Positions 1 through 16,256 of a stretch of 64,000 nucleotides of DNA are shown one piece after another. A program made the position numbers and the translations under genes. Origin of the DNA: a bacterium (GTDB lineage: Bacteria; UBP15; UBA6099); NCBI GenBank assembly GCA_029564595.1, contig JAKQPS010000018.1:10159-74158 (forward strand), read 5' to 3'. The notes beneath the pieces were generated by a model. That model was given only the letters and a program-made list of their open reading frames with translations, did no database searches and was not told the DNA's origin. Each line of letters opens with the position of its first letter. The first letter of the stretch is position 1.

Positions 1-1
1 C

Positions 2-1687: not shown

Positions 1688-1697
1688 GGGCACAGCC

Positions 1698-4600
1698 ATG
1701 GCGAGAACAACTACCAGACGAGCAAGACGCGCGGAGCCGCGGCTGAAGTTCGACCAGAAGCTGGTGCTCAACCAGTGGATGCTGCGCCTGTTCGAGGTCG
1801 AGCGTTTCGACCAGATCGCAACAGACGCATTCAAGAACCCGGCTCTCGAAGGCTGGGACGAAGATAACGTGACCCGGTTTTACCACGAACTCACCGCCCA
1901 GCTTTTCGACCGGCCCCGCCTGCCAAAGGACGACCTGCTGCGCTATGACGGCAATATTGTGCGGCACTGGAAGGCTATCACCGATCGGCGAACCCACGAC
2001 GGCCGCCGCCTTTACATGAAATATTTCCAGTACCTTGCCCTGCTGTTCACGGAAATATATCTGGACCGCTATTTCCGCGACGCCGAGGGGCTGCTGAACG
2101 AGTTGAACGCTTATGTGGAAATATTCAACGCGGACAAGCTCGAAGCCGACCGCGTGGAGCCGTTCCCGCCGGATTCATTGAACAAGCTGGCGTTCTGGAT
2201 GGCCACGGGCAGCGGCAAGACGCTGATCATGCATGTAAATATCAAACAGTATCTGCACTACATGGCGCAGGCAGGCATGGAGCGCGACCTGAACCGGGTC
2301 ATACTGCTGACACCCAACGAGGGGCTGTCCAAACAGCACCTCGACGAGTTCCTGCTGTCCGGCGTGGAAGCGGAAATATTTTCCAAGGAGTCACGCGGCC
2401 TGTTCGCCGGGCGTTCCGTGGAGATCATCGAAGTCACGAAACTGCGCGACGACATGGGCGAGAAAACCGTGGCCATTGACGCATTCGAGGGAAACAATCT
2501 CGTGCTAGTGGACGAGGGGCACCGGGGCGCCAGCGGCATCGAATGGATGGACAAGCGCAACCGCCTGTGCGAAAACGGGTTCTCTTTCGAGTACTCCGCC
2601 ACATTCGGCCAGGCCATGAAAGCGGCGAACAAATCGGCCCTGACACAGGAGTACACCCGCTGCATCCTGTTCGATTACTCGTACAAGTTTTTCTACCGGG
2701 ACGGCTACGGCAAGGACTATCACATCCTGAACCTTGAAGACGACACGCAGGAGGATGTGCGGCAGTTGTACCTGACCGCATGCCTGCTGATGTTCTATCA
2801 GCAACTACGGCTGTATCACGACAGAAAAAATGAGTACCGGCGATTTCTCATCGAGCATCCGCTGTGGGTTTTCGTGGGCGGCACGGTCAACGCCGTGCGC
2901 ACCCAGGGCGGCAGGCAGGTGTCCGACGTGGTGGACATCCTGCTTTTTATCGCCGGGTTTGTGAAGGACCCGAGACAGGCCGTGGGCCGGATCGAAAGGC
3001 TCAAGACCGGCGTCGCCGGATTGCTCGACGGCCGGGGCCGCGAAGTTTTCGCCAATGCGTTTGCATATCTGATTCGCACCGGCCAGACGCCGGAGCAGAT
3101 TTTCGAAGATGTGCTCAAGACCGTGTTCAACGCGCCCGCGCCCGCCATGCTGCATGTCGAGAATCTGAAAGGCGCGGACGGCGAGATCGCGCTGAAGATA
3201 GGCGACACGAACGAGCCATTCGGGCTGATAAACGTCGGAGACGCGTCGAAGCTGTGCGGGCTTTGCGAAAATCACCCTTCGCAGATGGTGGTGACCGACA
3301 GGGAGTTCTCCGGTTCGCTTTTCCGGGAACTGGACAAGGCCGACACGACCGTGAATCTGCTCATCGGCTCGAAAAAGTTCACCGAGGGCTGGAACAGTTG
3401 GCGCGTCAGTACCATGGGACTCATGAACGTGGGCCGGTCGGAAGGCTCGGAGATCATCCAGCTTTTCGGGCGCGGCGTCCGCCTCAAAGGGCAGAACTTC
3501 TGCTTGAAACGAAGCAGCTACCTGCTGGAGGAGCGCGCGCCGGAGTTCATACGCACCATCGAAACGCTGAACATTTTCGGCATCCGCGCCGATTACATGC
3601 GCCAGTTCAAGGAGTACCTCGAAGACGAGGGCCTGCCGTCGAACGAGGACCGCATCGAGATTGTGCTGCCGGTTCTGAAGAATCTCGGGGAAGTGAAACT
3701 ACGCACCGTGCGTTTGAAGGAAGGTCTCGACTTCAAGAAGAACAGGCCATATCCGACACTCGACATGCCACCCGAACAGTTGGAGCGGTATCCCGTTGTG
3801 CTGGACTGGTATCCGAAGATTCAGTCCGAGCGCAGCCGGGGCATCCGGGCGGAGGCAGATATTGCGGAGAAGTACCAGGCGACGCTTTCACGCGAGCATC
3901 TCGCGTTCATGGACTTTGACGCCATCTACTTCGCGCTACAGCAGTACAAGAACGAGCGGACGTGGTTCAACTTTAACCTCACGAGAGAAACTGTCGTGCG
4001 CCTGCTGGCGACGCCCGACTGGTACACGCTGCTCATACCCCCGGAGGAAATGCAGTTTACCCGGTTCGACCGTGTGCGCCTGTGGCAGGAGATCGCCGTG
4101 GCCCTGCTGCAGAAGTATTGCGACAAGTATTACAAATATCGCAAGGCGGAGTTTGAACTGCCGAACCTTGAATACACGGAGTTGACGCCGGACGATCCAA
4201 ACTTTCTTGATGAGTACAGGATTCTCATAGACGAATCGCAGCAGTCCATCGTGGAGACGATAGGTCAGTTGAAGCAGGCCATTGAAGCCGGGAACCTGCG
4301 GGACGTTGCGCTGGACCGCTTCCGGGCGATCTTCTTTGGCCGTCACCTGTACGAACCGCTCATCTATTGCACGAGCGACCTCATTGATGTGAGGCCGGTT
4401 GCGCTGAATGAAGGTGAGCGGGATTTCGTGATGGATTTGCGGCAGTTATATGACCGGAACTCCGCGTTTTTTCAAGACAAGGAACTTTACCTGCTGAGAA
4501 ACCGGAGCAAAGGACGCGGCATCGGTTTCTTTGAGGCCGGCAACTTCCACCCGGATTTCATCCTGTGGTTGCTCGTCGGCGACCGGCAGTATGTTTCATT

Positions 4601-4874
4601 TATTGATCCGAAGGGTCTGCGAAACCTGCAGGGGCGCACCGACCCTAAGATTCAGTTCTACCAGACGGTGAAGGACCTTGAGCGACGTCTCGGAGACCCG
4701 CGCGTCACCCTGAACTCGTTTATAGTAAGCGTGACGCCGTACGGTCAGGTCCGATGGTGGGACGGAGGCATGTCCCCAGCCCAGTTCGACGCCTGCAACG
4801 TCCTGTTCCGCGAGCCGGACGGCTCCGGCGCATATCTCCAGCGGCTGCTGTCAAAGGCCATCGCGCCGGTTTAA
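1698..4874 (+). CDS. res: Type III restriction endonuclease (Res subunit), SF2 helicase-like ATPase plus C-terminal PD-(D/E)XK nuclease
   Basis: Walker A MATGSGKT, Walker B VDEGH, SAT motif, QLFGRGVR motif VI, C-terminal FHPDFI...FIDPKG; starts 10 bp after mod stop. Confidence 0.92.
4783..4829 (+). repeat. 47-bp direct repeat, copy 1 (inside res 3' end)
   Basis: AGTTCGACGCCTGCAACGTCCTGTTCCGCGAGCCGGACGGCTCCGGC; matches 6285-6331 with one mismatch. Confidence 0.95.
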
Positions 4875-5051
4875 TCTGTCAACCGCTCTATTTAGGGCAT
4901 TAAAGAAGCATGTTATTTTTTGAATGACCGGGACTGATATATCAATAAGATGCTCAGGATGATAATGGCGTGACTGTGGCCAAAGACAGACCTGTATAAG
5001 CTTCAATGAAATCGACACAACTCTTGCCGATCCGCTCCGGTGAATAGAGAC

Positions 5052-5990
5052 ATGACAGATATTCCTGAAACCATCCAAATCAATCCTTCCAAGAAACCAA
5101 CGCATGTCGCCTTTGCCGACGAGTCACATCATAACGTCGGACGATACCGCAGTATAGCGCTTGTGACGCTGCCGATGGGGCAACTCAGCTCATGCAACAT
5201 CGCCGCCGCAGGCATCCTGTGCGACTGCAAGTTGAGTGAGTTCAAGTTCAGCAATATATATGGGGCCAGCGACAGAAATGCCGTCATTAGGTTGCTTGAG
5301 TGCATAGTAGAAAAAGCACATCGTGGCAACCTTCGGATCGACATCCTAGTCTGGGACATTCAGGATAGCCGTCACATGATAATCGGCCGCGACGATACCG
5401 AGAACCTGAACCGGATGTACTACCATCTCTTGCGAACCACGATGAAGTACCGATGGCCGAACGATGCAATATGGAGAATATACCCAGACCATAACTCTGG
5501 AATCCGTTGGAATGATCTGACCGGGATACTTCAGCATGTAGGCCTTCAGCCGGAAAAAAGGCCGGACTTGTTTACACCCATTGTTTGGGGTCTCGATTTC
5601 ATCAGGGAGTTTGATGTGGAGCGCATAGTTCCTTGTCATTCGCACGATACGCCTTTAATACAGGTCTCTGATATATTCGCCGGGCTGGCCGTGTTTTCTC
5701 GGGTGAACTACAACACATACAAGACATGGGAATCAAGTCAGGGATCGCAGACATCACTATTGTTCAACGAGGATGAATGTGAGATGAGCTTCAGCAGGGC
5801 GGAGAAGGAACGGTGCCGGATTATACGGGACTTCAATCGCATGTGCAAAGACCGAAAGATGTACGTCAGTCTTGACACCCATTCTGGGTTGAAGACCATG
5901 AATCCCAGTTTCCCGATCAACTTCTGGTGGTACGAACCACAGCACCCGGATGATAAGGCGCCCGTGAAGCAACGGCAGATAGATTGGTAA
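5052..5990 (+). CDS. DUF3800-family protein (predicted RNase H-like fold)
   Basis: N-terminal FADES motif and later IQVSDIFAG (QxxD) motif typical of DUF3800; alternative GTG start at 5040. Confidence 0.72.
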   Translation: MTDIPETIQINPSKKPTHVAFADESHHNVGRYRSIALVTLPMGQLSSCNIAAAGILCDCKLSEFKFSNIYGASDRNAVIRLLECIVEKAHRGNLRIDILVWDIQDSRHMIIGRDDTENLNRMYYHLLRTTMKYRWPNDAIWRIYPDHNSGIRWNDLTGILQHVGLQPEKRPDLFTPIVWGLDFIREFDVERIVPCHSHDTPLIQVSDIFAGLAVFSRVNYNTYKTWESSQGSQTSLLFNEDECEMSFSRAEKERCRIIRDFNRMCKDRKMYVSLDTHSGLKTMNPSFPINFWWYEPQHPDDKAPVKQRQIDW

Positions 5991-6046
5991 TGGAAAAACA
6001 TAGAACGATTACCCTCGTTGCGTTCAGCCGCTGATATGGGAATCAT

Positions 6047-6284
6047 CTATAAGCTTCCGAAGCTCTGAATCGACCACGGAGGAGCACGCCTCGTGAGTTC
6101 GAACACTTGCTTCAGAAAAGCCGCCTCTTTCTTCTTCGGCGTACCATGCCCCATCAGGATCGTTGTTGCCGCATCTCGCACCTTGTTTCGGAAAGACTTA
6201 ACGGCTTCGATGATCTTTTCGTGGTGGACTGTGGTGTGATCTTCTGCCACAATGCTGATCTTCTTTGGCAGATATTCCCGGCCT
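6047..6284 (-). pseudogene. Possible 3' remnant of an unknown gene, cut at the 47-bp repeat
   Basis: The 97-aa minus-strand ORF looks protein-like only left of the repeat; its N-terminus is antisense res-derived sequence; no family recognised. Confidence 0.3.
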
Positions 6285-6331
6285 AGTTCGACGCCTGCAA
6301 TGTCCTGTTCCGCGAGCCGGACGGCTCCGGC
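6285..6331 (+). repeat. 47-bp direct repeat, copy 2 (duplicated res 3' segment)
   Basis: AGTTCGACGCCTGCAATGTCCTGTTCCGCGAGCCGGACGGCTCCGGC; 46/47 identical to 4783-4829. Confidence 0.95.
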
Positions 6332-6784
6332 TTCTATCATCAGCCAATGATTCGAAAGATACTAAAATAAACAATGATTACAGATATAACGTCGTCAAAA
6401 TAAACTCAGAACTTAGGTTCATTTGTATAGCAAGAGCGTCTGGATTATCTTGCTTCATGATCGACATCAAATGATATATTTTTCAGCGAAAAATGTTTTT
6501 TTCGTCCTTCAAGGAGAGGGAGACACCATTTTCGGGTTGAAAAACGACCCCAAAATAACCACAATCTATGATGTATGATGATTACTATATCGATTATTAA
6601 CAATATTTAAAGAAAAAGGCAGAATATGGTAGTAATACTAGACATAATGTCTAATAAACATTGTTAGTGTGTCATGGACTTTTCATTTTATATGTCGAGG
6701 TTGGTCGAATAACGAGATTGTCGTCAAGAAGGTCTGTCGTGGTCATATTAGGCCCAGATGCCTCGAATATTCGGCGCCGGCGTC

Positions 6785-6986
6785 GGTGCGTAGCGTGCGC
6801 GTTGAGGTCAGATTTGGTTCTGCGAGGACTAAACATCCTTCTGCCGACTTTATCAAGCCTCACGCGCCGCTTCCGTGCCACCCTCTGTACACATGGCCCG
6901 GCTCGGCTAAATGCCCGGTCATATCGGGGTAATATTTATGAAGGTCGACAGGAAGATTGTGGGGCAACTTTTTATAAGTTGGCCAC
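6785..6986 (+). ncRNA. Candidate structured RNA element in the RT upstream region
   Basis: Bulged stem AGCG-t-GCGCG-t-TGAGG (6792-6807) / CCTCA-CGCGC-CGCT (6858-6871) enclosing hairpin TTTGGTTC/GGACTAAA (6813-6833); further hairpin 6959-6986; G-U pairs favour the + strand. Confidence 0.35.
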
Positions 6987-7446
6987 TCGACGGCTCAAAA
7001 TCGAAAAAACATACTCCCTAAGCTTTTAGCAGCGCTGGGACACCTCATTTCGCCATTTTACGCCGTTTTACAGGATTTCCGGGTCCAACGTAACAACAAT
7101 CCTAGGAATCGCCTGTTTTTGATTGTTTTTCTTGTAAGGCATGAAAGATATCTTGCGTTAGTGCTCGTAACAGCGAGCTAATCTGGTATAATAACTTGTT
7201 TTAATCTATGATACATGATTAACAGCCATATACAGCTTTGTGTTCGTCGCCTTAAGAGGTTTTTGGATACAAAATGCTTTGGCCGCATGACTGCATAATC
7301 GCAGAAATATTTTGGAACTGAAAAACCAGATAAAAAATACGAGAAAACAGGAGTTTTTCGAGTCATGAAGGCCGAAGACCCTAGGACATCGCTACAACTA
7401 GCTTTAATCGTTATGTGATATGTTCCAAAACCCCCAAAATCGGCGG

Positions 7447-7474
7447 TTGACAAATCTCAGGATTTTATTATCAT
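7447..7474 (+). promoter_or_regulatory. Sigma70-type promoter for the RT leader/ncRNA
   Basis: Perfect -35 TTGACA (7447-7452), 16-bp spacer, -10 TATCAT (7469-7474). Confidence 0.65.
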
Positions 7475-7480
7475 CAGAGC

Positions 7481-7800
7481 GAGGTGTTTTTTTTTAGAGG
7501 TGATCCTATCCGCACGGGCGCCAAAACCATCGCCCGACAGAACCGGCCGAGACACAAACCCTCGGGCAGATGAACACTGATAAGATGTATTATCAGGGTT
7601 TCCGGGCGTGGTGAGGATTGCATCTGTATATAGAGTGTGCGAGATAGGATGAGTGAAGATGGTCGCTCGTGTGGCTCACCTCATTCGTGAAGGCCCAGCG
7701 GGACCCTGAAGCAGCTTAGAAGAAAAAGGCCTTTCACTCATTCGGACTCGCACACTCGCTCCCAAACCTACGGAACGATCTGCCTTCCGTTTATTTTTTT
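7481..7800 (+). ncRNA. Candidate ~320-nt structured RT-associated non-coding RNA
   Basis: Perfect stems 7515-7520/7531-7536, 7547-7551/7561-7565, 7577-7583/7590-7596, 7633-7643/7747-7757 (11 bp) and 7649-7657/7733-7741 (9 bp); lies between a promoter and a terminator-like hairpin; no ORF in the track. Confidence 0.65.
7770..7800 (+). terminator. Intrinsic terminator-like hairpin directly before the RT start codon
   Basis: ACGGAA (7770-7775)/TTCCGT (7785-7790) followed by TTATTTTTTT, then ATG at 7801. Confidence 0.55.
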
Positions 7801-9015
7801 ATGATACAACAGATAGCTTCCTCAGAGAATATTCAAGAAGCCTTTGCTCATGTTAAGAATAGAGCGCGCGATGTCGATCAAGGAGCTGGTGTAGATAACA
7901 TAACCGTCGCGATGTTCGCTAAGCGATACACACTTTACGCAACGCAGATTCAGCGCGATCTTTTGTCCATGGCATATGAACCTAGTCCCGTTAGGCAGTT
8001 CCCAGTGGACAAGGCAACAGGCCTGCCTGTTCGGATTCCAATAATCGAAGCAAGCGAGCGTGACGATTGCCGCATTTTGGGGATTCCAACAGTTTTTGAT
8101 CGTGTAGTCAGTACAGCTATTCTATCGATAATCGAACCGATATTCGAGGTATTGTTTGAGGACTCCGTCCACGGATTCCGACCAACTCGGGGCCAGATCA
8201 CAGCACTTAATCGGATTTGCTCATTTTTAAAACAAGGAATCATCAATATATTCGAGACAGATATTGAAAGTTGCTTCCCAAGAATTCAGCATAGACTTCT
8301 ACTCGAAAAAGTCTCTGCGACGACCTCAGACCCGGACTTAATCGAGCTGATCAGACGCATTATCAGAGCGCCTATTGATACTTGTCCAAACGAACCGAAC
8401 ATATGCGGTCTCCATCAAGGCGGGAACATATCGCCGTTCCTATGCAATGTTTATCTGACCGATTATGACCGAACAATGGCTGCAGCCGGTTTGAAAAATA
8501 TCAGATATGCCGATGACATCATTTGTTTTTGTCATACGAAAGAGGAAGCGAAACAGGCAGAAGCGTTGTCTGAAAAGACGCTAGCGCCATTGGGCATGAA
8601 TCATAAAGCAAAAAAGACAAACCAAGTTTCAGCCTACGAAGGATTCGTCTTTCTCGGCTATGACATCAAGCTCATTGACGATGTAACAATAATGATAAAA
8701 GCCTCTGAAAAAGCTATAGTTAAACTGAACTTCAAAATCGACGAGGCACTCAAGGAATCCTCTTCTTCTAGCGCCCGAGATTGTGTCGAAGCTGTAAAAA
8801 ATGTTGTCTCAGGTTGGTTAGGACATTACGGCGCAATCAATGACTCCGGGCAGATTCGGGACATCAACGAGCAAATATCACTATCGATAAAACGCGGGAT
8901 GAGTCGATACAATTACAGTGCAGTAGAACGCGGAGATGTAGCCGTGCCGAATATAGCTAGAATGATAGCGGCGATTAAATATCGCAGAAAGCTCAGTAGC
9001 TTCCACCAAGAGTAA
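7801..9015 (+). CDS. Reverse transcriptase, group II intron-like (RT0-RT7 plus thumb/X domain, no endonuclease domain)
   Basis: GAGVD (RT0), RILGIPTVFDRVV, HGFRP, TDIESCF, GLHQGGNISP, RYADD, FVFLGY, thumb VSGWLGHY. Confidence 0.95.
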   Translation: MIQQIASSENIQEAFAHVKNRARDVDQGAGVDNITVAMFAKRYTLYATQIQRDLLSMAYEPSPVRQFPVDKATGLPVRIPIIEASERDDCRILGIPTVFDRVVSTAILSIIEPIFEVLFEDSVHGFRPTRGQITALNRICSFLKQGIINIFETDIESCFPRIQHRLLLEKVSATTSDPDLIELIRRIIRAPIDTCPNEPNICGLHQGGNISPFLCNVYLTDYDRTMAAAGLKNIRYADDIICFCHTKEEAKQAEALSEKTLAPLGMNHKAKKTNQVSAYEGFVFLGYDIKLIDDVTIMIKASEKAIVKLNFKIDEALKESSSSSARDCVEAVKNVVSGWLGHYGAINDSGQIRDINEQISLSIKRGMSRYNYSAVERGDVAVPNIARMIAAIKYRRKLSSFHQE

Positions 9016-9121
9016 ATATTTTTTGCTGATTAGAAGCAAGGAGAGTAATCCTGTTGGCAATGTTCTACAGGAGCGTCGTGTTCAAGGAACTTGCCGTAAA
9101 AATGCCTAGCAAACGTACAAG

Positions 9122-9145
9122 TGCTACCCCATTATGCTACCCCAT
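9122..9145 (+). repeat. Tandem 11-bp direct repeat, putative integrase arm-type sites
   Basis: TGCTACCCCAT at 9122-9132 and 9135-9145, ~45 bp inside the att core. Confidence 0.6.
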
Positions 9146-9190
9146 GATAATAATATATCCGTCATTAGTGATATATTTAGGTTTTACAAA

Positions 9191-9207
9191 GAGTCCCACT
9201 CTCTCCG
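9191..9207 (+). mobile_element. att core (tRNA 3'-end duplication, probably tRNA-Ser) marking the right end of an integrated island
   Basis: GAGT-CCCAC-TCTCTCC-G parses as T-loop end, T-stem 3' strand, acceptor 3' strand and discriminator G; the rest of the tRNA is absent; housekeeping genes follow. Confidence 0.7.
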
Positions 9208-9385
9208 TATAATAACTCTGAAGTGAATAAAGGCGATACGATATCATGTTTTGTTATGCGCCGCAGTTTGACGACGATGTTGCAGCGCGCGGTATTATCC
9301 CTGTTGTTTTATCCCGAATCCGTCGTTAGGATTCGGGAGCGATAGTTCAGAGCGGATGAAATGCGGAACGCAAGACGCGTTTTTA

Positions 9386-9453
9386 CAGTAGGAGCGGGGT
9401 TGCCCCGCCCCAAATTATCGTAGTTATTGGGCGCGGAAACCGCGCCCCTACTG
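9386..9453. repeat. Inverted pair of GTAG-family REP-like palindromes
   Basis: CAGTAGGAGCGGGGTTGCCCCGCCC ... GGGCGCGGAAACCGCGCCCCTACTG. Confidence 0.7.
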
Positions 9454-9758
9454 AACAAAAAAGGCGGCGTCAACGAAGCAGTTCGCCGCTGTGAAAACCG
9501 CCCCTGTTCGTCGGCTCTATCGACGAATCCGGGTTTATCGTCTCACGATAGAGATACGCTTTGAGCTTTATGCTTTAATGAATCCGAACCGGCATTGATT
9601 GCCTAACTGAAAGCATCCCGGTTGAAATTTATTAAAATGCTTGATAATTCTTCGCCCGTTAGAGTAAAGTAGTCTAGCCGGAGCGACCCGGCAGGTTATT
9701 AATAGATTACTTTCAGAGATTTGGGCGCGCGTCGCGCCCGCACATCCGGAGGTGAAAT

Positions 9759-10904
9759 ATGGCAAGAAGAGTTGCCGTTTGCGCTGTGGCGCAGACAGGG
9801 TTCGTTTCCAACATGTGGCAAAAGCGTTTCCAGCAGATGTGCTTCGAGACTGTCGAAAGCATTGTCAAACAGACTGGCGTCGACTGGAACGAGGAAACGG
9901 GCATCAGAAACATCGTGACATGTTCCGACGACGTTTTCGACGCGCGCACCATATCGGACAACGGAATAACAGACGCCGTCGGCGCGCATTTCAGAGGCGA
10001 GGAGAAAACGGCTCAGGACGGCATCAACGCCATCGCTTACGCCATGGCGTGCATCATGTCCGGCCATGACGATGTCGTGCTCGTTGTGGGACACACGAAG
10101 GAATCCCAAACCGAAAGCCGGAACATGTGCTCTAACCTCGCGTTCGACCCGTTCTACTGCCGGGATCTGGGGCTAGACTTCGAAAAAGGCGCGGCGCTCC
10201 AAGCCAGAGCCTACGCGCTGAAATCTGGAATATCCGAAACGCAACTTGCAAAAGCTGTTGTCAACGCGCGGCGCAATGCCGCCAAGAATCCGCTCGCGAA
10301 CGCGCGGGAACTGGTCACCGTCGAACAAGTTGTCAATTCTCCAATGTTGTGCGACCCGATTCGCGCTCTCCACGCGTACCCTGTTTCCGACGGGGCCGTC
10401 GCTATGCTGCTGGCGGCAGAGGACAAATATAAGGAATACACGGACAAGCCGGTATGGCTCACAGGCTGGTCGAACTGCATGGACAGCTATTTCTTCGGAG
10501 ATAGGGACCTTGCCTCGAATTTCTCTCTTAAGAAGGCGTCCGCCGCCGCGCTCAAGATGGCCGGGGTGTCCGACGCAAAGGGCGCGTTCGACGTTGTCGA
10601 GATAAACGACGCTTACGCGTATCAACTTGCAATGTGGGCCGAGGGCCTCGGCCTTTGCGACGAGAACAAAGGCGGCGAATGGATAGAGAGCGGCATTCTT
10701 GAAACGGGAAAAATCAATCCGTCGGGAGGGATGCTGGCGGGCAATCCTATAATGCTGGGCGGGTTGGCGAGAGCGGCTGAAGCAGTTATTCAACTGCGTG
10801 GCGAAGCGGGCGAAAGGCAAGTCGCCGGAGCCAAGCGCGCTGTCGCTCAAGGCACGACCGGCCCTGCCGGACAACATCAGGCAGTCATGATTCTCGAAAA
10901 CTGA
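9759..10904 (+). CDS. Thiolase-superfamily (SCP2/SCPx-type) protein, Ltp4-like
   Basis: PVSDGAVA, DVVEIND, INPSGG, QLRGEAGERQV motifs; no Cys at the usual nucleophile position; GGAGGT RBS. Confidence 0.85.
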   Translation: MARRVAVCAVAQTGFVSNMWQKRFQQMCFETVESIVKQTGVDWNEETGIRNIVTCSDDVFDARTISDNGITDAVGAHFRGEEKTAQDGINAIAYAMACIMSGHDDVVLVVGHTKESQTESRNMCSNLAFDPFYCRDLGLDFEKGAALQARAYALKSGISETQLAKAVVNARRNAAKNPLANARELVTVEQVVNSPMLCDPIRALHAYPVSDGAVAMLLAAEDKYKEYTDKPVWLTGWSNCMDSYFFGDRDLASNFSLKKASAAALKMAGVSDAKGAFDVVEINDAYAYQLAMWAEGLGLCDENKGGEWIESGILETGKINPSGGMLAGNPIMLGGLARAAEAVIQLRGEAGERQVAGAKRAVAQGTTGPAGQHQAVMILEN

Positions 10905-10920
10905 GCGGGAGGTGAAACCC

Positions 10921-12126
10921 ATGAAGAAACATAAAAAGAACAGAAACGTGGCGATAATCGGAATCGGGCAGACTCACCACTCGAGCCACCGAGAAGACGT
11001 CAATCAGCCGGAAATGATTCATGAAGCGGTGGAACGGGCTCTGAAGGACGCCGGGATCGGCATCGAAGACGTGGACGCTCTGGTTCACGGCAACATGGAA
11101 TTGTTCGAGATGGTGCATCAGCCCGACCTCTGGCACGTCATCGGCACAGGCGGCTACGGCAAAGCCTGTTACCGCGTCACCACAGGAGGAACGACCGGAG
11201 CCACCATCGTCGGCGTCGGAGACAATATCGTGGCTTCCGGTCTCCATGACATAGTGATGATCATCGGGTTTGAGAAGCAGCAGGAAGGGCACACCACGGG
11301 CGGCATAACGAATATGGCTGACCCGCTCTGGGCGCGCAACCTGCAGACCGGAGCGCTGACAGGAGCCACAGCGGAAAAAACAATCAACGAGTTCGGCGCG
11401 GACAGAGCGAAGCGCGCCGCTATGAGGCTCCGCGTTACTCTGGACAAACACGCATCGCTCAACCCGCACGCGCACCGCAACTTCGGACTTGACTACGACC
11501 AGATTGACGACCTCATGGTCAACTCCCCGCAGCTTGTCGGCGAATTGCGACTTATCCACATGTGTTCTCAGAGCGATGGCGCGGTCGCCATCATCCTCGC
11601 CTGCGAAGAAAAAGCGAAAAAGATATCCAAGAAACCCGTATGGATACGCGACCATGTCACCGTCCATAGAGAAGAAACTTTCAACATGTTCGGCATCAAC
11701 GAGAATCAGGAAGTCACCCACCACAACGCGGCGCGCAAGCTCTTCGGCCGCAACGGCATAACTAATCCGAGGGAATATTTCGACGTGTTCGAGATGTACG
11801 ACCCGTCCTCGTGGTGGGGCTTGGACTGGCTGAGGGAGTTCCTCCAACTCGAAGGAGACGAACACCTTAAGATGGTGGAAAACGACGAGGTGTCAATAAA
11901 CGGCTCGTTCCCGCTGAACCCGTCGGGGGGAGTCATATCGACGAATCCAATCGGGGCGACGGCGGCGCTGAGAGTGGCCGAAGCGGCCCTTCAGGTGAGA
12001 GGCGACGCCGGCGCGCATCAGATCCCGCGCGAGGTGAAACACGCCCTCGCATCCGGTTTCGGAGGCACTTTCTGGACCGTTCTGTTCATGCTTGAAAAAG
12101 ACCTTGACTGGCAGGAGGCTGAGTGA
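10921..12126 (+). CDS. Thiolase-superfamily (SCP2/SCPx-type) protein, Ltp3-like
   Basis: VAIIGIGQT start, RVTTGGTTG, SDGAVA, EMYDP, LNPSGGVISTNPIGAT, QVRGDAGAHQ. Confidence 0.85.
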   Translation: MKKHKKNRNVAIIGIGQTHHSSHREDVNQPEMIHEAVERALKDAGIGIEDVDALVHGNMELFEMVHQPDLWHVIGTGGYGKACYRVTTGGTTGATIVGVGDNIVASGLHDIVMIIGFEKQQEGHTTGGITNMADPLWARNLQTGALTGATAEKTINEFGADRAKRAAMRLRVTLDKHASLNPHAHRNFGLDYDQIDDLMVNSPQLVGELRLIHMCSQSDGAVAIILACEEKAKKISKKPVWIRDHVTVHREETFNMFGINENQEVTHHNAARKLFGRNGITNPREYFDVFEMYDPSSWWGLDWLREFLQLEGDEHLKMVENDEVSINGSFPLNPSGGVISTNPIGATAALRVAEAALQVRGDAGAHQIPREVKHALASGFGGTFWTVLFMLEKDLDWQEAE

Positions 12127-12127
12127 C

Positions 12128-13288
12128 ATGGCCAAATACTTTGATGTAAGCGTGGAAGATATTTTCAACACAATGGAAGCCCGGTTTCGCGTCGAAGGCG
12201 CGAAGGGCGTCAACGCCGTCCTCGCGTACGATATCTCAGGCGACGGCGGCGGCAAATGGCTGGTGGAAGTCCGCGACGACTCCGTTAAAGTCGCCAAGAC
12301 GGACGACCTCTCCGGCTTCTCCGTCAAAACGTCAGCCGACGCGGAGACCTTCGTCGGCGTGAACATCGGCAAGATCGACGGCACGCAGGCTTTTATGTCC
12401 GGCAAGATAAAGATCGAGGGCGACATGGCGCTGGTCGCCGCGTCCGCCAAAATGTTCACCAGATATTCCCTGCCCAAGAAAAGCGCCGTCACCGTTCAGG
12501 GAATATTCGACACTCTGGTGGCGCGTTTCCAGCCGCAAAACGCCGCCGGACTGGATATCTCAGTGGGATACGACATCACAGGCGAAGACGGCGGACAGTG
12601 GACCGCCGTCATAAAAGACGGCAAATGCGCGCTCGAAACCGGTCTGCGCGACAACTGCGCCGTCGTCAACATCGTCAAAGCCAAAGACTACATCGATTTG
12701 ATCCTCGGCAAGCTGGACCCGATGGTGGCAATGGGCGCGGGAAGGCTGAAACTTAAAGGCGATATGAACGTGGCGATGCAACTGCCGAAAATATTCGCCA
12801 AGTTCGAGCCGCCCAAGGAAGAGGAAGAGCAGGAACTGATTGTCATAAAGAGAAATATATCGGTTGACATGAAGTATTCCACCGGGCCGGTGATGGGCAA
12901 GTTCTTCGAGGGGCTTATCGAAAAGAAGATACTCGCGAACAAGTGTCCGAAGTGCGGCCGCATGCAGGTTCCGCCGCGCGAGGTGTGCGCGGAATGCCGC
13001 TGCTGGGCGGGCGACATGATAGAGGTCGGGCCGTCGGGCACGATAACTCTCATCGAGATCATTTACTACTCCAGCCCCGACCCGCTCACGGGCGAAACCC
13101 GCGAGACTCCTTACGCTCAGGTTCACATATTGCTGGACGGCATCGGCACAGAAGAAACATTCTGGCATCTGCTGAAAAACGAGGACCTCGCGGACACCAA
13201 AAAAGGCGACCGCGTGCGCCCCGTGTGGAGCGACAAACGCGTCGGCTCCGTTCACGATATTATTCACTTTGAAAGAATCAGAGACTGA
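12128..13288 (+). CDS. Tandem SCP2 sterol/lipid-binding domains fused to a Zn-ribbon/OB-fold (DUF35) domain
   Basis: Two repeats of YDIxGxxGGxW...(G)K/RLKxxGDM; then CPKC..PPREVCAEC and GDRVRPVW. Confidence 0.85.
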   Translation: MAKYFDVSVEDIFNTMEARFRVEGAKGVNAVLAYDISGDGGGKWLVEVRDDSVKVAKTDDLSGFSVKTSADAETFVGVNIGKIDGTQAFMSGKIKIEGDMALVAASAKMFTRYSLPKKSAVTVQGIFDTLVARFQPQNAAGLDISVGYDITGEDGGQWTAVIKDGKCALETGLRDNCAVVNIVKAKDYIDLILGKLDPMVAMGAGRLKLKGDMNVAMQLPKIFAKFEPPKEEEEQELIVIKRNISVDMKYSTGPVMGKFFEGLIEKKILANKCPKCGRMQVPPREVCAECRCWAGDMIEVGPSGTITLIEIIYYSSPDPLTGETRETPYAQVHILLDGIGTEETFWHLLKNEDLADTKKGDRVRPVWSDKRVGSVHDIIHFERIRD

Positions 13289-13314
13289 CGAGCATTCCGA
13301 AAGGAGCAACGGCC

Positions 13315-13773
13315 ATGACTGAAGAAAACAAGCATTGCTACATAAAAGAGGGCAAGCTCGCCCTGCCCTACCAGTATTTCGCAGGGCGCGTCGGCAGCAA
13401 GTTCCTTGTCTCGCTTCGCGACAAAAAGAAAATCCTCGGCGTGAAATGCGAAAAGTGCGGCAAAGTGTTTATACCCCCGCGCAAGACTTGCGAACGCTGC
13501 TTCGAGGATATATCCGAAAAATGGGTCGAGCTTTCCAACGAAGGCGAAGTGACCAACTTCACCGTTGTGAGAACCGACGATAAGCACCATCCGAGAAAAG
13601 CGCCTTATGTTCTTGCCATGATAAAACTCGGCGGCGCGGACACGCCCATCGCGCACATCCTCGGCGGCGTAGACCCCGACTCGGTGAAAACAGGAATGAA
13701 AGTCAAAGCGGTGTTCGCCGACAAAGCCGTCAACACGATGTTGCAGATTGACAGGTTCGAGCCGGTCAACTGA
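13315..13773 (+). CDS. Zn-ribbon/OB-fold DUF35 protein
   Basis: CEKC..PPRKTCERC, GEVTNFTVV, GMKVKAVF. Confidence 0.88.
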   Translation: MTEENKHCYIKEGKLALPYQYFAGRVGSKFLVSLRDKKKILGVKCEKCGKVFIPPRKTCERCFEDISEKWVELSNEGEVTNFTVVRTDDKHHPRKAPYVLAMIKLGGADTPIAHILGGVDPDSVKTGMKVKAVFADKAVNTMLQIDRFEPVN

Positions 13774-13789
13774 TAACTAAATAGCGATT

Positions 13790-14419
13790 TTACCGTTCGG
13801 CGACGACTCTATTGACGAGCCGCCCAATGCCGTCTATCTCGACTGCCGCCTCGTCTCCCGGCGACATCGGACCGACTCCCGACGGAGTGCCAGTCGCTAT
13901 AACATCGCCCTTCTCAAGCGTCATCACGCCGCTGACGAACTCGATTATTTTTTCCACTGTGAATATCAGATTGCCCGTGTGCGATTTCTGTTTTAGTTCC
14001 CCGTTCAGATAGCATCTCACGCCAACCGCTCCGGGGTCAATCTCGTCCGTAACCAACGGCCCGATGGGGCAAAAAGTGTCGAAACTTTTCGCCCGCGTCC
14101 ACTGCCCGTCTCTTCCCTGCATGTGCCTCTCCGTCACGTCGTTGACGCAGGTAAAACCCTCAATGAAGTCCATAGCGTCTTCGGCGCGGACTCTCTTGCA
14201 ATCGCGTCCAATCACAACGCCCAACTCGGCCTCGTAGTCCACCCGCGTCGCTCCCTTTGGATAGACGATTAATCCGCCGTCGTGGATGACCGCCGTGGAG
14301 GGCTTTATAAATAGTATCGGCTCCTGCGGCAACGGCATGTTAAACTCCGTGGCGTGGTCTCTGTAGTTCAATCCAACCGCCACAACTTTCCCCGGCTTGT
14401 CTTTGTATTCTCTAATCAA
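13790..14419 (-). CDS. Fumarylacetoacetate hydrolase family protein
   Basis: VGLNYRDH, DYEAEL, NDVTER, KSFDTFCPIGP, GDVIATGTPSGVG; TTG start after GGGAGG preferred (ORF extends to 14443). Confidence 0.92.
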   Translation of the reverse strand: MIREYKDKPGKVVAVGLNYRDHATEFNMPLPQEPILFIKPSTAVIHDGGLIVYPKGATRVDYEAELGVVIGRDCKRVRAEDAMDFIEGFTCVNDVTERHMQGRDGQWTRAKSFDTFCPIGPLVTDEIDPGAVGVRCYLNGELKQKSHTGNLIFTVEKIIEFVSGVMTLEKGDVIATGTPSGVGPMSPGDEAAVEIDGIGRLVNRVVAER

Positions 14420-14582
14420 GTTGCCCTCCCGCGCGCAGCGCACATCTTATATACCACACATCCCTGCGCCGCACAACACCGGCGGCGCATCCGTATTTCG
14501 GCTGCGTATTGATTATCCCTCCTTATCATGATAAAAATAGTGGCGATAAATCGTTAAGGATGAGATTCATCCGAAAGTCAGT

Positions 14583-16256
14583 ATGAACCAGATAGATTGG
14601 TCCCACATCGTTTTCAACCTGCTCGGCGGACTTGGCATTTTCCTTTTCGGCATCAAAACCATGTCGTCGGGGATGCAGCAACTCGCCGGGAATCGAATAA
14701 AGCGGACATTCGACAAACTGACAAACAACCGGTTTGTCGGCCTGTTGGTCGGACTTTCCGTCACCGCGATTATACAGTCAAGCTCGGCTACGACCGTGAT
14801 GATAGTCGGATTCATAAACGCCGGGCTGATGGAACTGTCCAGCGCTGTGGGCATCATCCTCGGCGCCAACATCGGAACAACTATAACTTCATGGATAATA
14901 GTGATAAAGATAACGCGCTATGCGATGCCTATAGTCGGCATAGGCGCTTTGCTGGCTCTTTTCTCAAAGAATAAACGAGTCAAGACATGGGGCGAGTCCC
15001 TGCTCGGCTTCGGACTTCTTTTCATGGGTCTTAAACTCATGGAGACGGCGTTCATGCCGTTGAGAGAGAACGAGCAGTTCATAACATTCTTCGCGCAATT
15101 CGGAGCGGCTAGCTTCCCGCAGATTCTCAAAAGCGTCCTCGCCGGCCTGCTGCTTACAATGATCGTTCAGTCCAGTTCTGCGACAATCGGCATAACCATC
15201 GCCTTGGCGAATCAGGGGCTGCTGACCTACGAAGCCGCCGCCGCTCTCGTGCTCGGCGAAAACATCGGAACCACCATCACCATGGAACTTGCTTCCATAG
15301 GCGCCAACATTTCAGCAAAAAGAGCCGCTCGCATTCATACGCTCTTCAACGTCATCGGCGTCACTTATATGGTTTTTGTCTTTCCATACTATATAAAACT
15401 CATCGACCACATCGTGCCGGGGGGAATGAACCATGTTGCTGCTGACGGCACGCGACCGTATATCGCCGCGCACATCGCCGCCGGACATTCCGTATTCAAT
15501 ATTTTCAACTCTCTGGTTTTTCTCTTTGCCGCCGGGCTTCTCATCAAGCTGGTGACTTTGCTTATCCCCGGCGACAAGGATAAATCCGATCACAAACTCG
15601 AATACATTGATTACAGTTTCATCTCCGCGCCGGCGATAGCTCTCGGCCAGTCGAAAAAAGAAATCATCAAGATGTCCGGCATGGTCATAGACATGTTCAA
15701 GTGGAACTCGGACATGCTGGTCACCCAGTCGCTCGACCAAGACAAAGTCGAGCGATTGTTCAAATACGAGAATATCACAGACTCTCTTCAGGCTGAAATC
15801 TCGAAGTTCCTCGCGCAACTTCTTCAGAGCGGCCCCGGCCCCGATCACGCGGAAGAAGCTCGCAGATATCTCAGAGTTACCGACGAGTTGGAATCTATCG
15901 GCGACTACTGCGAACAGTTGGCAAAATACTGCGTCCGCAAAGAACAGCAGAATGTGGTTTTCACTGAAAGCGCCTCTCAAGGACTGCTGGATTCGCATAG
16001 AGAACTGCTCGAATACCTTGAGATGTGCATGCTTTGTTTCATAGAAGAAAAAGCGCGCAACCGACACGAGGCCGACTCAAGAAGCAAATCCCTTCAGAAA
16101 ACAATAAAAAGGTTGAAGGACGACCATGTCGAAAGGCTTAACAGAGGCGAATGCGACGTCGTCCCCGGACTCCTGTACAACGACATTCTCACAGCATTCC
16201 AGAAAATTCGATCCCACTCCCACAACATAGCCGAAGCCATAATCGGATTGAAATGA
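14583..16256 (+). CDS. Na/Pi cotransporter family protein with C-terminal PhoU domains
   Basis: Two QSSSAT...GxNIGTT repeats; helical C-terminus with ELESIGD. Confidence 0.92.
   Translation: MNQIDWSHIVFNLLGGLGIFLFGIKTMSSGMQQLAGNRIKRTFDKLTNNRFVGLLVGLSVTAIIQSSSATTVMIVGFINAGLMELSSAVGIILGANIGTTITSWIIVIKITRYAMPIVGIGALLALFSKNKRVKTWGESLLGFGLLFMGLKLMETAFMPLRENEQFITFFAQFGAASFPQILKSVLAGLLLTMIVQSSSATIGITIALANQGLLTYEAAAALVLGENIGTTITMELASIGANISAKRAARIHTLFNVIGVTYMVFVFPYYIKLIDHIVPGGMNHVAADGTRPYIAAHIAAGHSVFNIFNSLVFLFAAGLLIKLVTLLIPGDKDKSDHKLEYIDYSFISAPAIALGQSKKEIIKMSGMVIDMFKWNSDMLVTQSLDQDKVERLFKYENITDSLQAEISKFLAQLLQSGPGPDHAEEARRYLRVTDELESIGDYCEQLAKYCVRKEQQNVVFTESASQGLLDSHRELLEYLEMCMLCFIEEKARNRHEADSRSKSLQKTIKRLKDDHVERLNRGECDVVPGLLYNDILTAFQKIRSHSHNIAEAIIGLK

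What the first reader, a model, noticed from the sequence alone, without database searches (positions are those of the whole stretch)
7447..9015. Stand-alone group II-like RT preceded by its own promoter-bounded, highly structured ~320-nt RNA at the end of a defence island: candidate new RT-ncRNA system
Seen: a TTGACA-N16-TATCAT promoter, then ORF-free DNA with three short hairpins (7515-7596) and a long interrupted stem (GAGTGTGCGAG 7633-7643/7747-7757; ATGAGTGAA 7649-7657/7733-7741) enclosing ~73 nt. A hairpin plus U-tract and an intact YADD RT follow. No group II intron DV (AGC/CGC triad hairpin) or DVI is recognisable after the ORF. There is no cas1, Avd/TR or retron VTG motif, and no effector gene is adjacent. 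Known: retrons, DRT2 and DRT9 use an upstream ncRNA as template, but their RTs are not of this RT0-containing, maturase-like type; intron-less group II-like (G2L) RTs exist and some act in DNA repair. Inference: a domesticated intron-type RT paired with a dedicated template/scaffold RNA, possibly antiviral given the R-M/DUF3800 neighbourhood.
Basis: partly seen in the sequence, partly recalled or inferred. Interest (0 to 1): 0.9.

Follow-up and report, generated by a model that had tools for sequence, protein, structure and literature searches.

The report
Rare intron-less group II-type reverse transcriptase
A very rare, intact reverse transcriptase descended from group II intron enzymes but lacking any intron sits alone behind a long folded leader RNA on a mobile defence island, and whether that RNA is its working partner is still unproven.

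Summary
The features present are a strong promoter-like site (7447-7474), about 320 ORF-free, strongly folding bases (z -3.9), a 25-nt-arm inverted repeat (7633-7657/7733-7757), a hairpin plus U-tract abutting the ATG, and an intact 404-aa YADD RT (7801-9015). Rfam finds no intron domain, although two related control loci are detected.

The RT is closest to group IIC intron RTs (GsI-IIC, TM 0.77). It forms its own long-branched clade of only three proteins among billions searched. It is single-copy, under purifying selection, and lies in low-GC island DNA that same-genus genomes lack.

The one relative with DNA available (52% identity) is also island cargo, next to xis/int and a tRNA. It shares only the RT, a long ORF-free leader, and a hairpin plus U-rich tract just before the ATG. 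Its leader shows no detectable sequence or structure similarity to the window's. A conserved dedicated ncRNA is therefore not shown.

Best reading: a domesticated, free-standing group II-like RT of a new lineage, whose expression is gated by a leader/attenuator that the RT may bind. A templating RT-ncRNA defence system remains possible (about 0.25). Interest is moderate to high.

The parts
7447..7474 (+). Sigma-70-like promoter TTGACA-N16-TATCAT; predicted start near 7481
   Evidence: 11 of 12 consensus matches, the best site in 6900-9800. Function is not shown.
7481..7800 (+). About 320-nt ORF-free structured leader (candidate ncRNA or attenuator) in front of the RT
   Evidence: no ORF of 60 aa or more; MFE -116 kcal/mol, z -3.94. 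It is single-copy in the genome. Rfam gives no match, and phage and plasmid records give none. A metatranscriptome contig covers 7511-7751 with no differences.
7500..7621 (+). 5' multibranch domain. It is closed by 7500-7507/7614-7621 and holds the hairpins 7547-7565 and 7577-7596, plus the alternative hairpin 7516-7535.
   Evidence: helices with pair probability >= 0.7; sequence read.
7633..7757 (+). Long interrupted stem enclosing a two-hairpin junction. Arms are 7633-7657 and 7733-7757, extended by 7661-7664/7728-7731.
   Evidence: A strain variant, C7731T, changes G-C to G-U in this stem. No counterpart was found in the G010 leader.
7770..7800 (+). Terminator-like hairpin (7770-7775/7785-7790) and U-tract (7791-7800) ending at the start codon
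   Evidence: G010 has a hairpin in the same position (9 pairs, then TCTTTCTT, then ATG). The two hairpins differ in sequence.
7801..9015 (+). Free-standing group II-type reverse transcriptase, 404 aa
   Evidence: Sequence families: RVT_1 3.7e-28; TIGR04416 244 bits, below its 300 cut-off. Best solved relatives are the IIC RTs 7uim and 6ar1. AlphaFold2 pLDDT is 96.4, and Foldseek's best match is GsI-IIC RT at TM 0.77. The three-protein clade has 99% SH-aLRT support. Against G010, pN is 0.32 and pS 0.88.
8014..8067 (+). Roughly 14-17-residue insertion between motifs RT1 and RT2 (within about residues 72-89), present in 2 of the 3 family members
   Evidence: Alignment: present in P0001 and P0003, absent from P0122 and from the 10 other RTs aligned.
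8506..8517 (+). YADD active-site motif (residues 236-239)
   Evidence: It is conserved in all 3 family members.
9016..9298 (.). ORF-free spacer between the RT and the island border
   Evidence: One search lists only ORFs of 59 aa or fewer. An RNA-run contig covers 8854-9137. Rfam gives no match.

Best explanation
Window 7447-9015 is a single-gene accessory module. It encodes a domesticated, free-standing reverse transcriptase that descends from group II (IIC-like) intron RTs but no longer has a ribozyme. It belongs to a very rare, previously unplaced lineage with three known members.

The enzyme keeps the full group II RT architecture: RT0, RT1-7, the 2a/3a insertions, the thumb (domain X) and YADD. 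It is therefore very probably an active, primer-dependent polymerase.

The gene is transcribed from its own promoter through a 320-nt structured leader. The leader ends in a hairpin plus U-tract that touches the start codon. I infer that this hairpin and U-tract gate RT expression by transcription attenuation and by occluding the ribosome site, which has no Shine-Dalgarno sequence. I also infer that it is the likeliest RNA contact of the RT, by analogy with intron RTs that bind the DIVa stem-loop at their own start codon (recalled, not checked here). Most transcripts would stop there as a free leader RNA, and read-through would give a little RT.

The module rides on mobile or defence islands, which points to a role in conflicts with phages or other mobile elements.

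Shown: anatomy, lineage, rarity, purifying selection, island context, and a conserved layout in one homologue. Inferred: attenuation, RT binding to the leader, and the defence role.
For: Lineage:
- NCBIfam's group II RT/maturase model is by far the best match (244 bits, against 69 or fewer for the Drt and retron models), yet it falls below the cut-off.
- The best solved relatives are IIC intron RTs (1.3e-32 and 7.1e-32). G2L4 scores only 3.8e-9.
- The AlphaFold2 model (pLDDT 96.4) matches GsI-IIC RT at TM 0.77 over 367 columns.

No intron:
- No Rfam hit was found at E<=10 in the window or in the G010 locus, while the control loci L008 and L010 were detected.
- The RT and its leader each occur once in the genome. 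The only other RT match there is a different, 33%-identical gene.

Distinct, constrained family:
- Only P0003 (52%) and P0122 (about 40%) are close. The profile score then drops from 690 to 245 bits.
- The clade has 99% SH-aLRT support on a stem of 0.89 and lies outside the sampled maturase-bearing clades.
- All three members keep the catalytic D154 and YADD.
- pN is 0.32 against pS 0.88.

Accessory cargo:
- The RT is present in 1 of 8 family genomes and 2 of 13 phylum genomes.
- GC is 43-49% against a genome average of 54.5%.
- The island carries type III R-M, DrmD-like and DUF3800 genes.
- The G010 copy sits beside an HTH_17 gene, a tyrosine integrase and a tRNA.
- Only the RT is shared between the two loci.

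Layout:
- Both loci have a long ORF-free leader and a hairpin plus 9-10 U-rich bases immediately before the ATG, with different hairpin sequences.

RNA:
- One contig from each of three metatranscriptome runs lies on 7511-7751, 7911-8117 and 8854-9137.
Against: - Attenuation and RT binding to the leader are inferences; nothing here measures them.
- The window's hairpin is weak (6 bp, 3 of them G-C, 9-nt loop) and was not listed by the terminator scan.
- The leaders of the two loci share no detectable sequence or fold. Whatever the body of the leader does is either not conserved or evolves too fast to see with one comparison.
- The elaborate, highly stable fold in the window (z -3.9) is more than a simple attenuator needs.
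- Lack of a Shine-Dalgarno sequence is not unusual here. Only about 47% of long ORFs have one by a crude count, against a 16% background.
- The RNA-run contigs are at low depth (2-5.5). They cannot show strand or transcript ends and could be DNA carry-over.
- The defence role rests on neighbourhood alone, and no effector is conserved.
Confidence: 0.45

Rival explanations
1. This is a two-part RT-ncRNA system. The leader would be released at the terminator as a stable ncRNA that the RT binds and partly reverse-transcribes, with the long stem-loop delimiting the template. The cDNA or the complex would mediate anti-phage immunity. That would be functionally like retrons or DRT2/DRT9/DRT10, but built on a group II-type RT.
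For: - The order promoter, structured RNA, terminator-like hairpin, RT is the gene order described for ncRNA-using DRTs (passages of PMC12632851 read).
- The fold is exceptionally stable (z -3.94).
- A metatranscriptome contig lies entirely inside the leader (7511-7751), in a run with no contig on the RT ORF.
- The only point difference seen in a second strain keeps a stem pair (G-C to G-U), and its two indels lie in unpaired homopolymer runs.
- The context is a defence island.
- The homologue has the same layout.
Against: - No sequence or structure conservation of the leader was detected in the one homologue available, and that leader is not unusually stable (z -1.6).
- No effector gene is conserved.
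- The 75-nt loop unit gives no endless reading frame of the DRT2 kind. No formal search for DRT10-style A-B-A' template motifs was run.
- From recall: group II-type RTs are primer-dependent. No priming route is evident here, whether a 2'-OH branch as in retrons or protein priming as in UG class 2.
Confidence: 0.25
2. This is a host-beneficial DNA-repair or translesion polymerase in the manner of G2L4. The RT would work on DNA ends without any RNA partner, and the leader would be an ordinary long 5' UTR.
For: - It is free-standing, intron-less and group II-like, the category to which G2L4 belongs (abstract and passages of 10.1101/2022.03.14.484287 read).
- The G2L4 structure is among the Foldseek hits (rank 6, TM 0.72).
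- No effector or RNA conservation was found.
Against: - Sequence similarity to G2L4 is weak (39 bits, against 116 for IIC RTs).
- The active site is YADD, not the YIDD stressed for G2L4.
- The distribution is patchy and island-borne (2 of 13 phylum genomes), unlike a housekeeping repair gene.
Confidence: 0.12
3. This is an immobilised, decaying group IIC intron. The leader would be a degenerate DI-DIII, DV/DVI would have been lost, and the ORF would still be open by chance or by recent decay.
For: - The closest relatives are IIC intron RTs.
- The 320-380-nt distance from leader start to ORF is similar to the 5' part of small IIC introns (recalled, not tested).
- GUGUGCG at 7635-7641 resembles an intron 5' end (sequence; the consensus is recalled).
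Against: - No Rfam intron domain matches upstream or downstream in either locus, even with lax filters, whereas controls are found.
- Three members at 40-52% identity all keep intact ORFs and catalytic motifs, with pN far below pS.
- The family has its own conserved substitutions and sits on a long separate branch.
- The unit is single-copy.
Confidence: 0.07

Closest known systems
Group IIC intron-encoded RTs (GsI-IIC RT, PDB 6ar1; Eubacterium rectale IIC intron RT, PDB 7uim)
   Same: These are the best sequence and fold matches (1.3e-32 and 7.1e-32; TM 0.77). Shared features are RT0, RT1-7, the 2a/3a insertions, the thumb (domain X), YADD, a size of about 400-420 aa and no endonuclease domain.
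   Different: The window has no ribozyme domains and only one copy. TIGR04416 scores below its cut-off (244 against 300) and GIIM is only marginal (0.037). The family has its own changes (HQGG for PQGG, CFP for CFD, GWLGH in the thumb), a new C-terminal tail, and an RT1-RT2 insertion in 2 of 3 members.
Free-standing group II-like RTs (the G2L classes of Simon & Zimmerly 2008, PMC2602772), including the DNA-repair enzyme G2L4
   Same: The concept is the same: a conserved stand-alone ORF closely related to intron RTs, with domain X kept and no domain V (passages read).
   Different: It is not G2L4 (39 bits; YADD rather than YIDD). It has no CRISPR or cas1 link such as G2L1 and G2L2 have. Placement against G2L3 and G2L5 could not be tested because no reference sequences were on hand. 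No leader RNA was mentioned for any G2L class in the passages I read.
ncRNA-templated defence RTs of UG/Abi class 2 (DRT2, DRT9, DRT10/UG17) and retrons
   Same: The gene layout has a structured non-coding RNA directly upstream of, and apparently co-transcribed with, the RT. The module is compact, sits on defence islands and has an intact catalytic site.
   Different: The RT lineage is different. The Drt2, Drt9, Drt3a and retron models score far below their cut-offs. The PADLOC UG17 model also matches 4 of the 5 other group II-like RTs tested, at 98.7-182.8 bits, and the family members P0003 and P0122 at 116-130 bits, so that hit is generic. There is no SLATT or other effector. No conserved ncRNA fold has been shown. 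Rfam finds no retron or other RNA family.

Membership tests
Mobile group II intron | Ribozyme domains flanking the ORF (DI-DIV upstream, DV/DVI downstream) | tested here: not met
   No Rfam intron model matched at E<=10 in 5500-10500, in 7440-7830, or in the G010 locus. Controls L008 and L010 gave D1-D4 and/or DV hits.
Mobile group II intron | Intron-type RT/maturase protein (TIGR04416 equivalog; GIIM domain) | tested here: inconclusive
   TIGR04416 scores 244 bits, below its 300 cut-off. GIIM gives E 0.037 at 14.5 bits, below its cut-off of 23. The fold nonetheless matches GsI-IIC RT including the thumb.
Mobile group II intron | Mobility, seen as multiple copies | tested here: not met
   There is one copy of the DNA in a genome rated 97% complete. 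Repeats can be under-assembled in a 203-contig assembly.
Free-standing group II-like RTs (G2L, broad sense) | Nearest relatives are intron RTs, the ORF is conserved, and no intron RNA is present | tested here: met
   relatedness; conserved, constrained ORF; no intron RNA.
G2L4 DNA-repair RT | YIDD active site and close sequence similarity to G2L4 | tested here: not met
   The active site is YADD. The match to the G2L4 chains 9d4s and 9d5x is only 39 bits.
CRISPR-associated RT (G2L1/G2L2, RT-Cas1) | Fusion to or adjacency of cas1, or a CRISPR array | tested here: not met
   The protein has 404 aa and no Cas1 domain. No cas gene appears among the ORFs of window 1-13800 that were scanned, and no spaced repeat array lies in 6000-9800. 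The rest of the window was not scanned for cas genes.
DRT10 / UG17 | UG17-clade RT with an adjacent SLATT gene and a subtype ncRNA | tested here: not met
   The UG17 model scores 130 bits, but it also matches 4 of the 5 other group II-like RTs tested at 98.7-182.8 bits, so the hit is generic. No SLATT or other PADLOC hit was found in the neighbouring small ORFs. The motif is YADD; passages give YVDD for the characterised system.
Retron | Retron-clade RT plus an msr/msd ncRNA | tested here: not met
   The retron_St85 model scores 37.7 bits against a cut-off of 235. No Rfam family matches the leader. The inverted repeats at the two ends of the leader are short and overlap the predicted transcription start (read).
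Diversity-generating retroelement | Template and variable repeat pair, and an Avd accessory gene | tested here: not met
   No direct repeat longer than 20 nt lies in 6000-9800. No Avd-like Pfam hit was found among the neighbours. DGR RT structures rank well below the IIC RTs.

The most novel reading that the evidence does not exclude
A group II intron RT lineage has been domesticated into a minimal RT-plus-RNA immune or conflict module. The 320-nt leader would be released at the pre-ATG terminator, bound by the RT through an intron-style protein-hairpin contact, and reverse-transcribed within the long stem-loop domain to make a functional cDNA. This would be an origin of ncRNA-templated defence independent of retrons and the UG/Abi DRTs.
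Probability: 0.22. Interest if true: 0.85.

Novelty: new variant of a known kind. Interest (0 to 1): 0.58.

Why it matters
Free-standing group II-like RTs are known as a category, but only two of their roles have been worked out in the literature consulted here: CRISPR spacer capture and G2L4 DNA repair.

This lineage is extremely rare, with three proteins among the billions searched. It is clearly under selection and horizontally carried on islands. It is the closest thing to a bare IIC-type RT with its own promoter and a long structured leader.

If the leader proves to be the enzyme's partner, ncRNA-guided reverse transcription would have been invented from the intron lineage as well. It would also supply a compact IIC-type RT plus RNA pair for study.

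If the leader is only regulatory, the locus is still a clean case of how an intron RT is tamed. It would keep a hairpin at its own start codon, possibly a relic of DIVa autoregulation.

Tried and rejected
- **Intron hypothesis.** Rfam was run with lax filters on the window and on G010. Nothing matched.
- **More family members with DNA.**
  - The metagenome-contig scan returned 80 loci, the best at 30% identity, and none belongs to the family.
  - Genome contigs gave only G010.
  - Viral contigs gave none.
  - Plasmid and phage tblastn gave only relatives below 32% identity among the listed rows.
  - The third member, P0122, is known only as a protein from a 2225-nt contig.
- **Leader homology.** Each of these tests was negative:
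  - local and end-anchored alignments
  - a pairing-profile alignment
  - a single-sequence covariance model of 7630-7762
  - blastn of the leader against phages and plasmids
- **DRT2-like endless ORF.** The loop unit gives none.
- **Conserved neighbour or effector.** tblastx of window 1-16000 against the G010 locus finds only the RT. PADLOC and Pfam give nothing for the small flanking ORFs.
- **Pre-ATG hairpin in other RT relatives.** Seven metagenome loci were inspected and no comparable hairpin plus U-tract was seen, but their start codons are uncertain. This was uninformative.
- **Missing Shine-Dalgarno as a signal.** Rejected, since only about 47% of long ORFs show one.
- **Parts of the locus without RNA-contig cover**. 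No conclusion was drawn.
- **The UG17 hit.** Rejected as generic.
- **Supplements.** Supplementary files of the papers were not consulted. RT trees and G2L accession lists in them might place this lineage.
Full report
**1. What is in the sequence**

The ORF at 7801-9015 (+) encodes a 404-aa protein with the motif IRYADDI. Upstream lies the best sigma-70-like site of the region, TTGACA-16-TATCAT at 7447-7474, which matches 11 of 12 consensus positions. From there to the ATG no ORF of 60 aa or more exists on either strand.

The stretch 7475-7800 folds at -116 kcal/mol. One hundred dinucleotide shuffles average -97.2 +/- 4.8, giving z -3.94, and none folds as well. Helices with pair probability of at least 0.7 define three parts:
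- A 5' multibranch domain, closed by 7500-7507/7614-7621, with hairpins at 7547-7565 and 7577-7596.
- A 3' domain made of the long interrupted stem. The repeat finder reports it independently as 25-nt arms at 7633-7657 and 7733-7757, 84% complementary.
- A final 6-bp hairpin (7770-7775/7785-7790) whose U-tract (7791-7800) runs into the start codon.

**2. Not an intron**

Rfam has seven D1-D4 models and the DV/DVI model for group II introns. It gave no intron hit at E<=10 in 5500-10500 or in 7440-7830 with laxer filters. It also gave none in the homologous G010 locus. Seven metagenome loci encoding related RTs were scanned in the same way. Two of them (L008, L010) gave strong D1-D4 and/or DV hits, so the method does detect introns of this neighbourhood.

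The RT and its leader each occur once in the genome, which is rated 97% complete. The only other RT match in that genome is a different, 33%-identical gene on contig C176.

**3. What the protein is**

- Pfam finds RVT_1 (3.7e-28) and a marginal GIIM match (0.037).
- NCBIfam's group II RT/maturase equivalog is far ahead of every other model, at 244 bits against 69 or fewer for Drt3a, Drt2, retron and AbiA. It still falls below its cut-off of 300.
- PADLOC's best hits are a generic 'RT' model and then RT_UG17. The UG17 model also matches 4 of the 5 other group II-like RTs tested, at 98.7-182.8 bits, so it says nothing specific.
- Among solved structures, the best sequence matches are the IIC intron RTs 7uim (1.3e-32) and GsI-IIC 6ar1 (7.1e-32). 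G2L4 reaches only 3.8e-9.
- An AlphaFold2 model built from a 64-sequence alignment has pLDDT 96.4. Its best Foldseek match is GsI-IIC RT, at TM 0.77 over 367 columns.
- The alignment shows RT0, RT1-7, the 2a/3a insertions and the thumb motif. It also shows family-specific changes: HQGG for PQGG, CFP for CFD and GWLGH for GWxNY. An insertion of roughly 14-17 residues lies between RT1 and RT2 in 2 of 3 members, and the family has its own C-terminal tail.

**4. How rare it is, and where it branches**

A word-indexed search of 5.8 billion proteins found one close relative, P0003 at 52% identity. All other listed hits were intron-type RTs at 29-37% identity. An exhaustive profile search of 1.84 billion cluster representatives added one more, P0122 (392 aa, about 40%). 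A three-sequence profile scores these at 690-788 bits and the next protein at 245 bits.

I built a tree of 83 rows. It held the 3 family members, 57 of the 60 best cluster representatives (3 shorter than 330 aa were dropped), 22 maturase-bearing RTs chosen by me, and the genome's second RT. The three form a clade with 99% SH-aLRT support on a stem of 0.89. The clade lies outside the sampled maturase-bearing clades. Its only suggested sister is a long-branched protein at 88% support, and deeper forks are unresolved. No curated G2L, CRISPR, UG or retron references were available, so this is a placement among nearest neighbours, not a full classification.

Codon comparison with G010 gives pN 0.32 against pS 0.88 (saturated) over 395 codons. 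D154 and YADD are invariant in all three members. The gene is under purifying selection.

**5. Context**

The RT was found in 1 of 8 genomes of its family and in 2 of 13 genomes of its phylum, counting the window's own genome. Several of those genomes are only 67-89% complete.

Two same-genus genomes align with the window only from 9625 rightwards, at 96% and 90% identity. In one of them the DNA beyond that point matches other contigs of the window's genome.

GC is 43-49% across 6000-9400, against 54.5% for the genome.

To the left lie DUF3800, a type III restriction enzyme, an N6_N4 methylase and a DrmD-like SNF2 helicase. Further left are FGE-sulfatase, ARPP-1, ADP-ribosylglycohydrolase, PD-(D/E)XK and DUF932 genes.

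In G010 the RT is followed on the same strand by an HTH_17 (excisionase-like) gene and a tyrosine integrase next to a tRNA gene. tblastx between window 1-16000 and the 16.8-kb G010 locus finds only the RT.

The conserved unit is therefore the RT with whatever lies just upstream, carried as cargo on different mobile or defence islands.

**6. Is the leader a conserved RNA?**

G010 has a TGCTATAAT element about 390 nt upstream of its ATG. I read this as an extended -10; the scan, which requires a -35 hexamer, did not list it. No convincing ORF lies between it and the ATG. One 107-aa GTG-started frame overlaps the leader and the RT start, but it has no PADLOC hit (Pfam not run) and sits in GC-rich DNA. 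A terminator-like hairpin (9 pairs, then TCTTTCTT, then ATG) occupies the same position as the window's. The two hairpins differ in sequence, so the position is kept and the letters are not.

Beyond that, nothing is shared:
- Local alignment scored 21, against 18.6 +/- 2.2 for shuffles.
- End-anchored alignments of five segments gave z from -1.5 to 1.7.
- A pairing-probability profile alignment gave z 1.0, with 10 of 60 shuffles at least as good.
- A covariance model of 7630-7762 found no match in the G010 leader at E<=10 with filters off.
- The G010 leader is not unusually stable (z -1.6; 9 of 100 shuffles fold as well).

These tests have little power with one pair at 52% protein identity. 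They still give no support for a conserved fold.

**7. Expression hints**

Three activated-sludge metatranscriptome runs each hold one perfect contig on the locus:
- 7511-7751, entirely within the leader (depth 5.5).
- 7911-8117, within the RT (depth 5.2).
- 8854-9137, the RT 3' end plus 122 nt downstream (depth 2.2).

Contigs cannot show strand or transcript ends, and DNA carry-over is possible.

A DNA run from another study differs from the window at three places, all in the leader. C7731T turns the G7661-C7731 pair into G-U. Single-base insertions lie in two unpaired homopolymer runs. All are at depth 4-5 and may include assembly errors.

**8. Reading**

The safest statement is that this is a new, very rare lineage of free-standing group II-type RTs. 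It is an intron RT that has lost its ribozyme, is kept by selection, and travels on islands.

For mechanism I commit to the following. The only leader feature whose position is kept between the two loci is the hairpin plus U-tract that touches the ATG. It is therefore the part most likely to matter. It should terminate most transcripts and hinder ribosome loading on the rest, keeping RT levels low. By analogy with intron RTs that bind DIVa at their own start codon (recalled, not tested), it is the likeliest RT contact.

I put that at about 0.25. The layout and stability fit, but conservation, an effector and a priming route are all missing. A G2L4-like repair role (0.12) and a decaying intron (0.07) are less likely, for the reasons given under the rival explanations.

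**9. Novelty and score**

Free-standing group II-like RTs have been a known category since 2008 (PMC2602772, passages read). G2L4 has a worked-out role (abstract and passages read). ncRNA-templated RT defence is known for retrons and for DRT2, DRT9 and DRT10 (passages of PMC12632851 and 10.64898/2026.04.29.721553 read; other papers seen only as search listings). Those three full-text searches listed no paper whose title or abstract start describes a group II-type RT with a dedicated upstream ncRNA. Other searches might find one.

I rate this a new variant of a known kind, with interest 0.58.

Noticed in passing
window 9299-9545: A roughly 245-nt element rich in GC hairpins is highly repeated. 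The window's own genome gives 146 blastn hits, 53 of them 180 nt or longer. Each of four related genomes holds dozens of copies. Depth is high in both DNA and RNA runs, and a variant form skips 9390-9456. It sits at the island border and looks like a MITE- or REP-like repeat.
   Followed up: partly
G000:C176 (locus L003, 1135-2310 +): The same genome holds a second, unrelated RT of 391 aa, 33% identical over residues 91-253. It lies on a short contig. Its best PADLOC hits are the generic RT model (1.2e-50) and the RT part of an RT-Cas1 model (1.2e-42). In the tree it sits on a very long branch near proteins of about 950 aa.
   Followed up: partly
G000:C157:1-10158 (left of the window; locus L105) and window 1-5990: The island carries a large conflict-gene cluster. 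Its genes are DUF932, a PD-(D/E)XK nuclease, ADP-ribosylglycohydrolase, ARPP-1, FGE-sulfatase, a DrmD-like SNF2 helicase (PADLOC 1.1e-203), a 981-aa N6_N4 methylase, a type III restriction enzyme (2.4e-231) and DUF3800. It may be a DISARM-like or type III R-M hybrid.
   Followed up: partly
window 6563-6579 and 7203-7219: A 17-nt direct repeat, AATCTATGAT(G/A)(T/C)ATGAT, has two copies 640 nt apart at 88% identity. They flank the small ORF 6661-7029. They could be operator or attachment-type sites.
   Followed up: no
L005 (G010:C160) 8385-11376: Two tyrosine integrase genes (8385-9608 + and 10156-11376 -) face two tRNA genes (9556-9641 - and 9976-10048 +). This suggests two integrative elements inserted back to back. 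The RT module is the first cargo of the right-hand one.
   Followed up: no
metagenome loci L006, L007, L009, L011, L012: Five of the seven best metagenome RT relatives (27-32% identity) gave no Rfam intron hit at gathering score. They may be further intron-less group II-like RTs, or introns cut off by contig ends.
   Followed up: no
window 6047-7453: Three small ORFs lie between DUF3800 and the RT promoter: 6047-6340 (-), 6661-7029 (+) and 7178-7453 (-). None has a PADLOC match, and Pfam gave only one sub-threshold zinc-ribbon hit, for 6661-7029. None has a counterpart at the G010 locus. Part of this stretch (6278-6669) is 89% identical to a different contig of a same-genus genome.
   Followed up: partly
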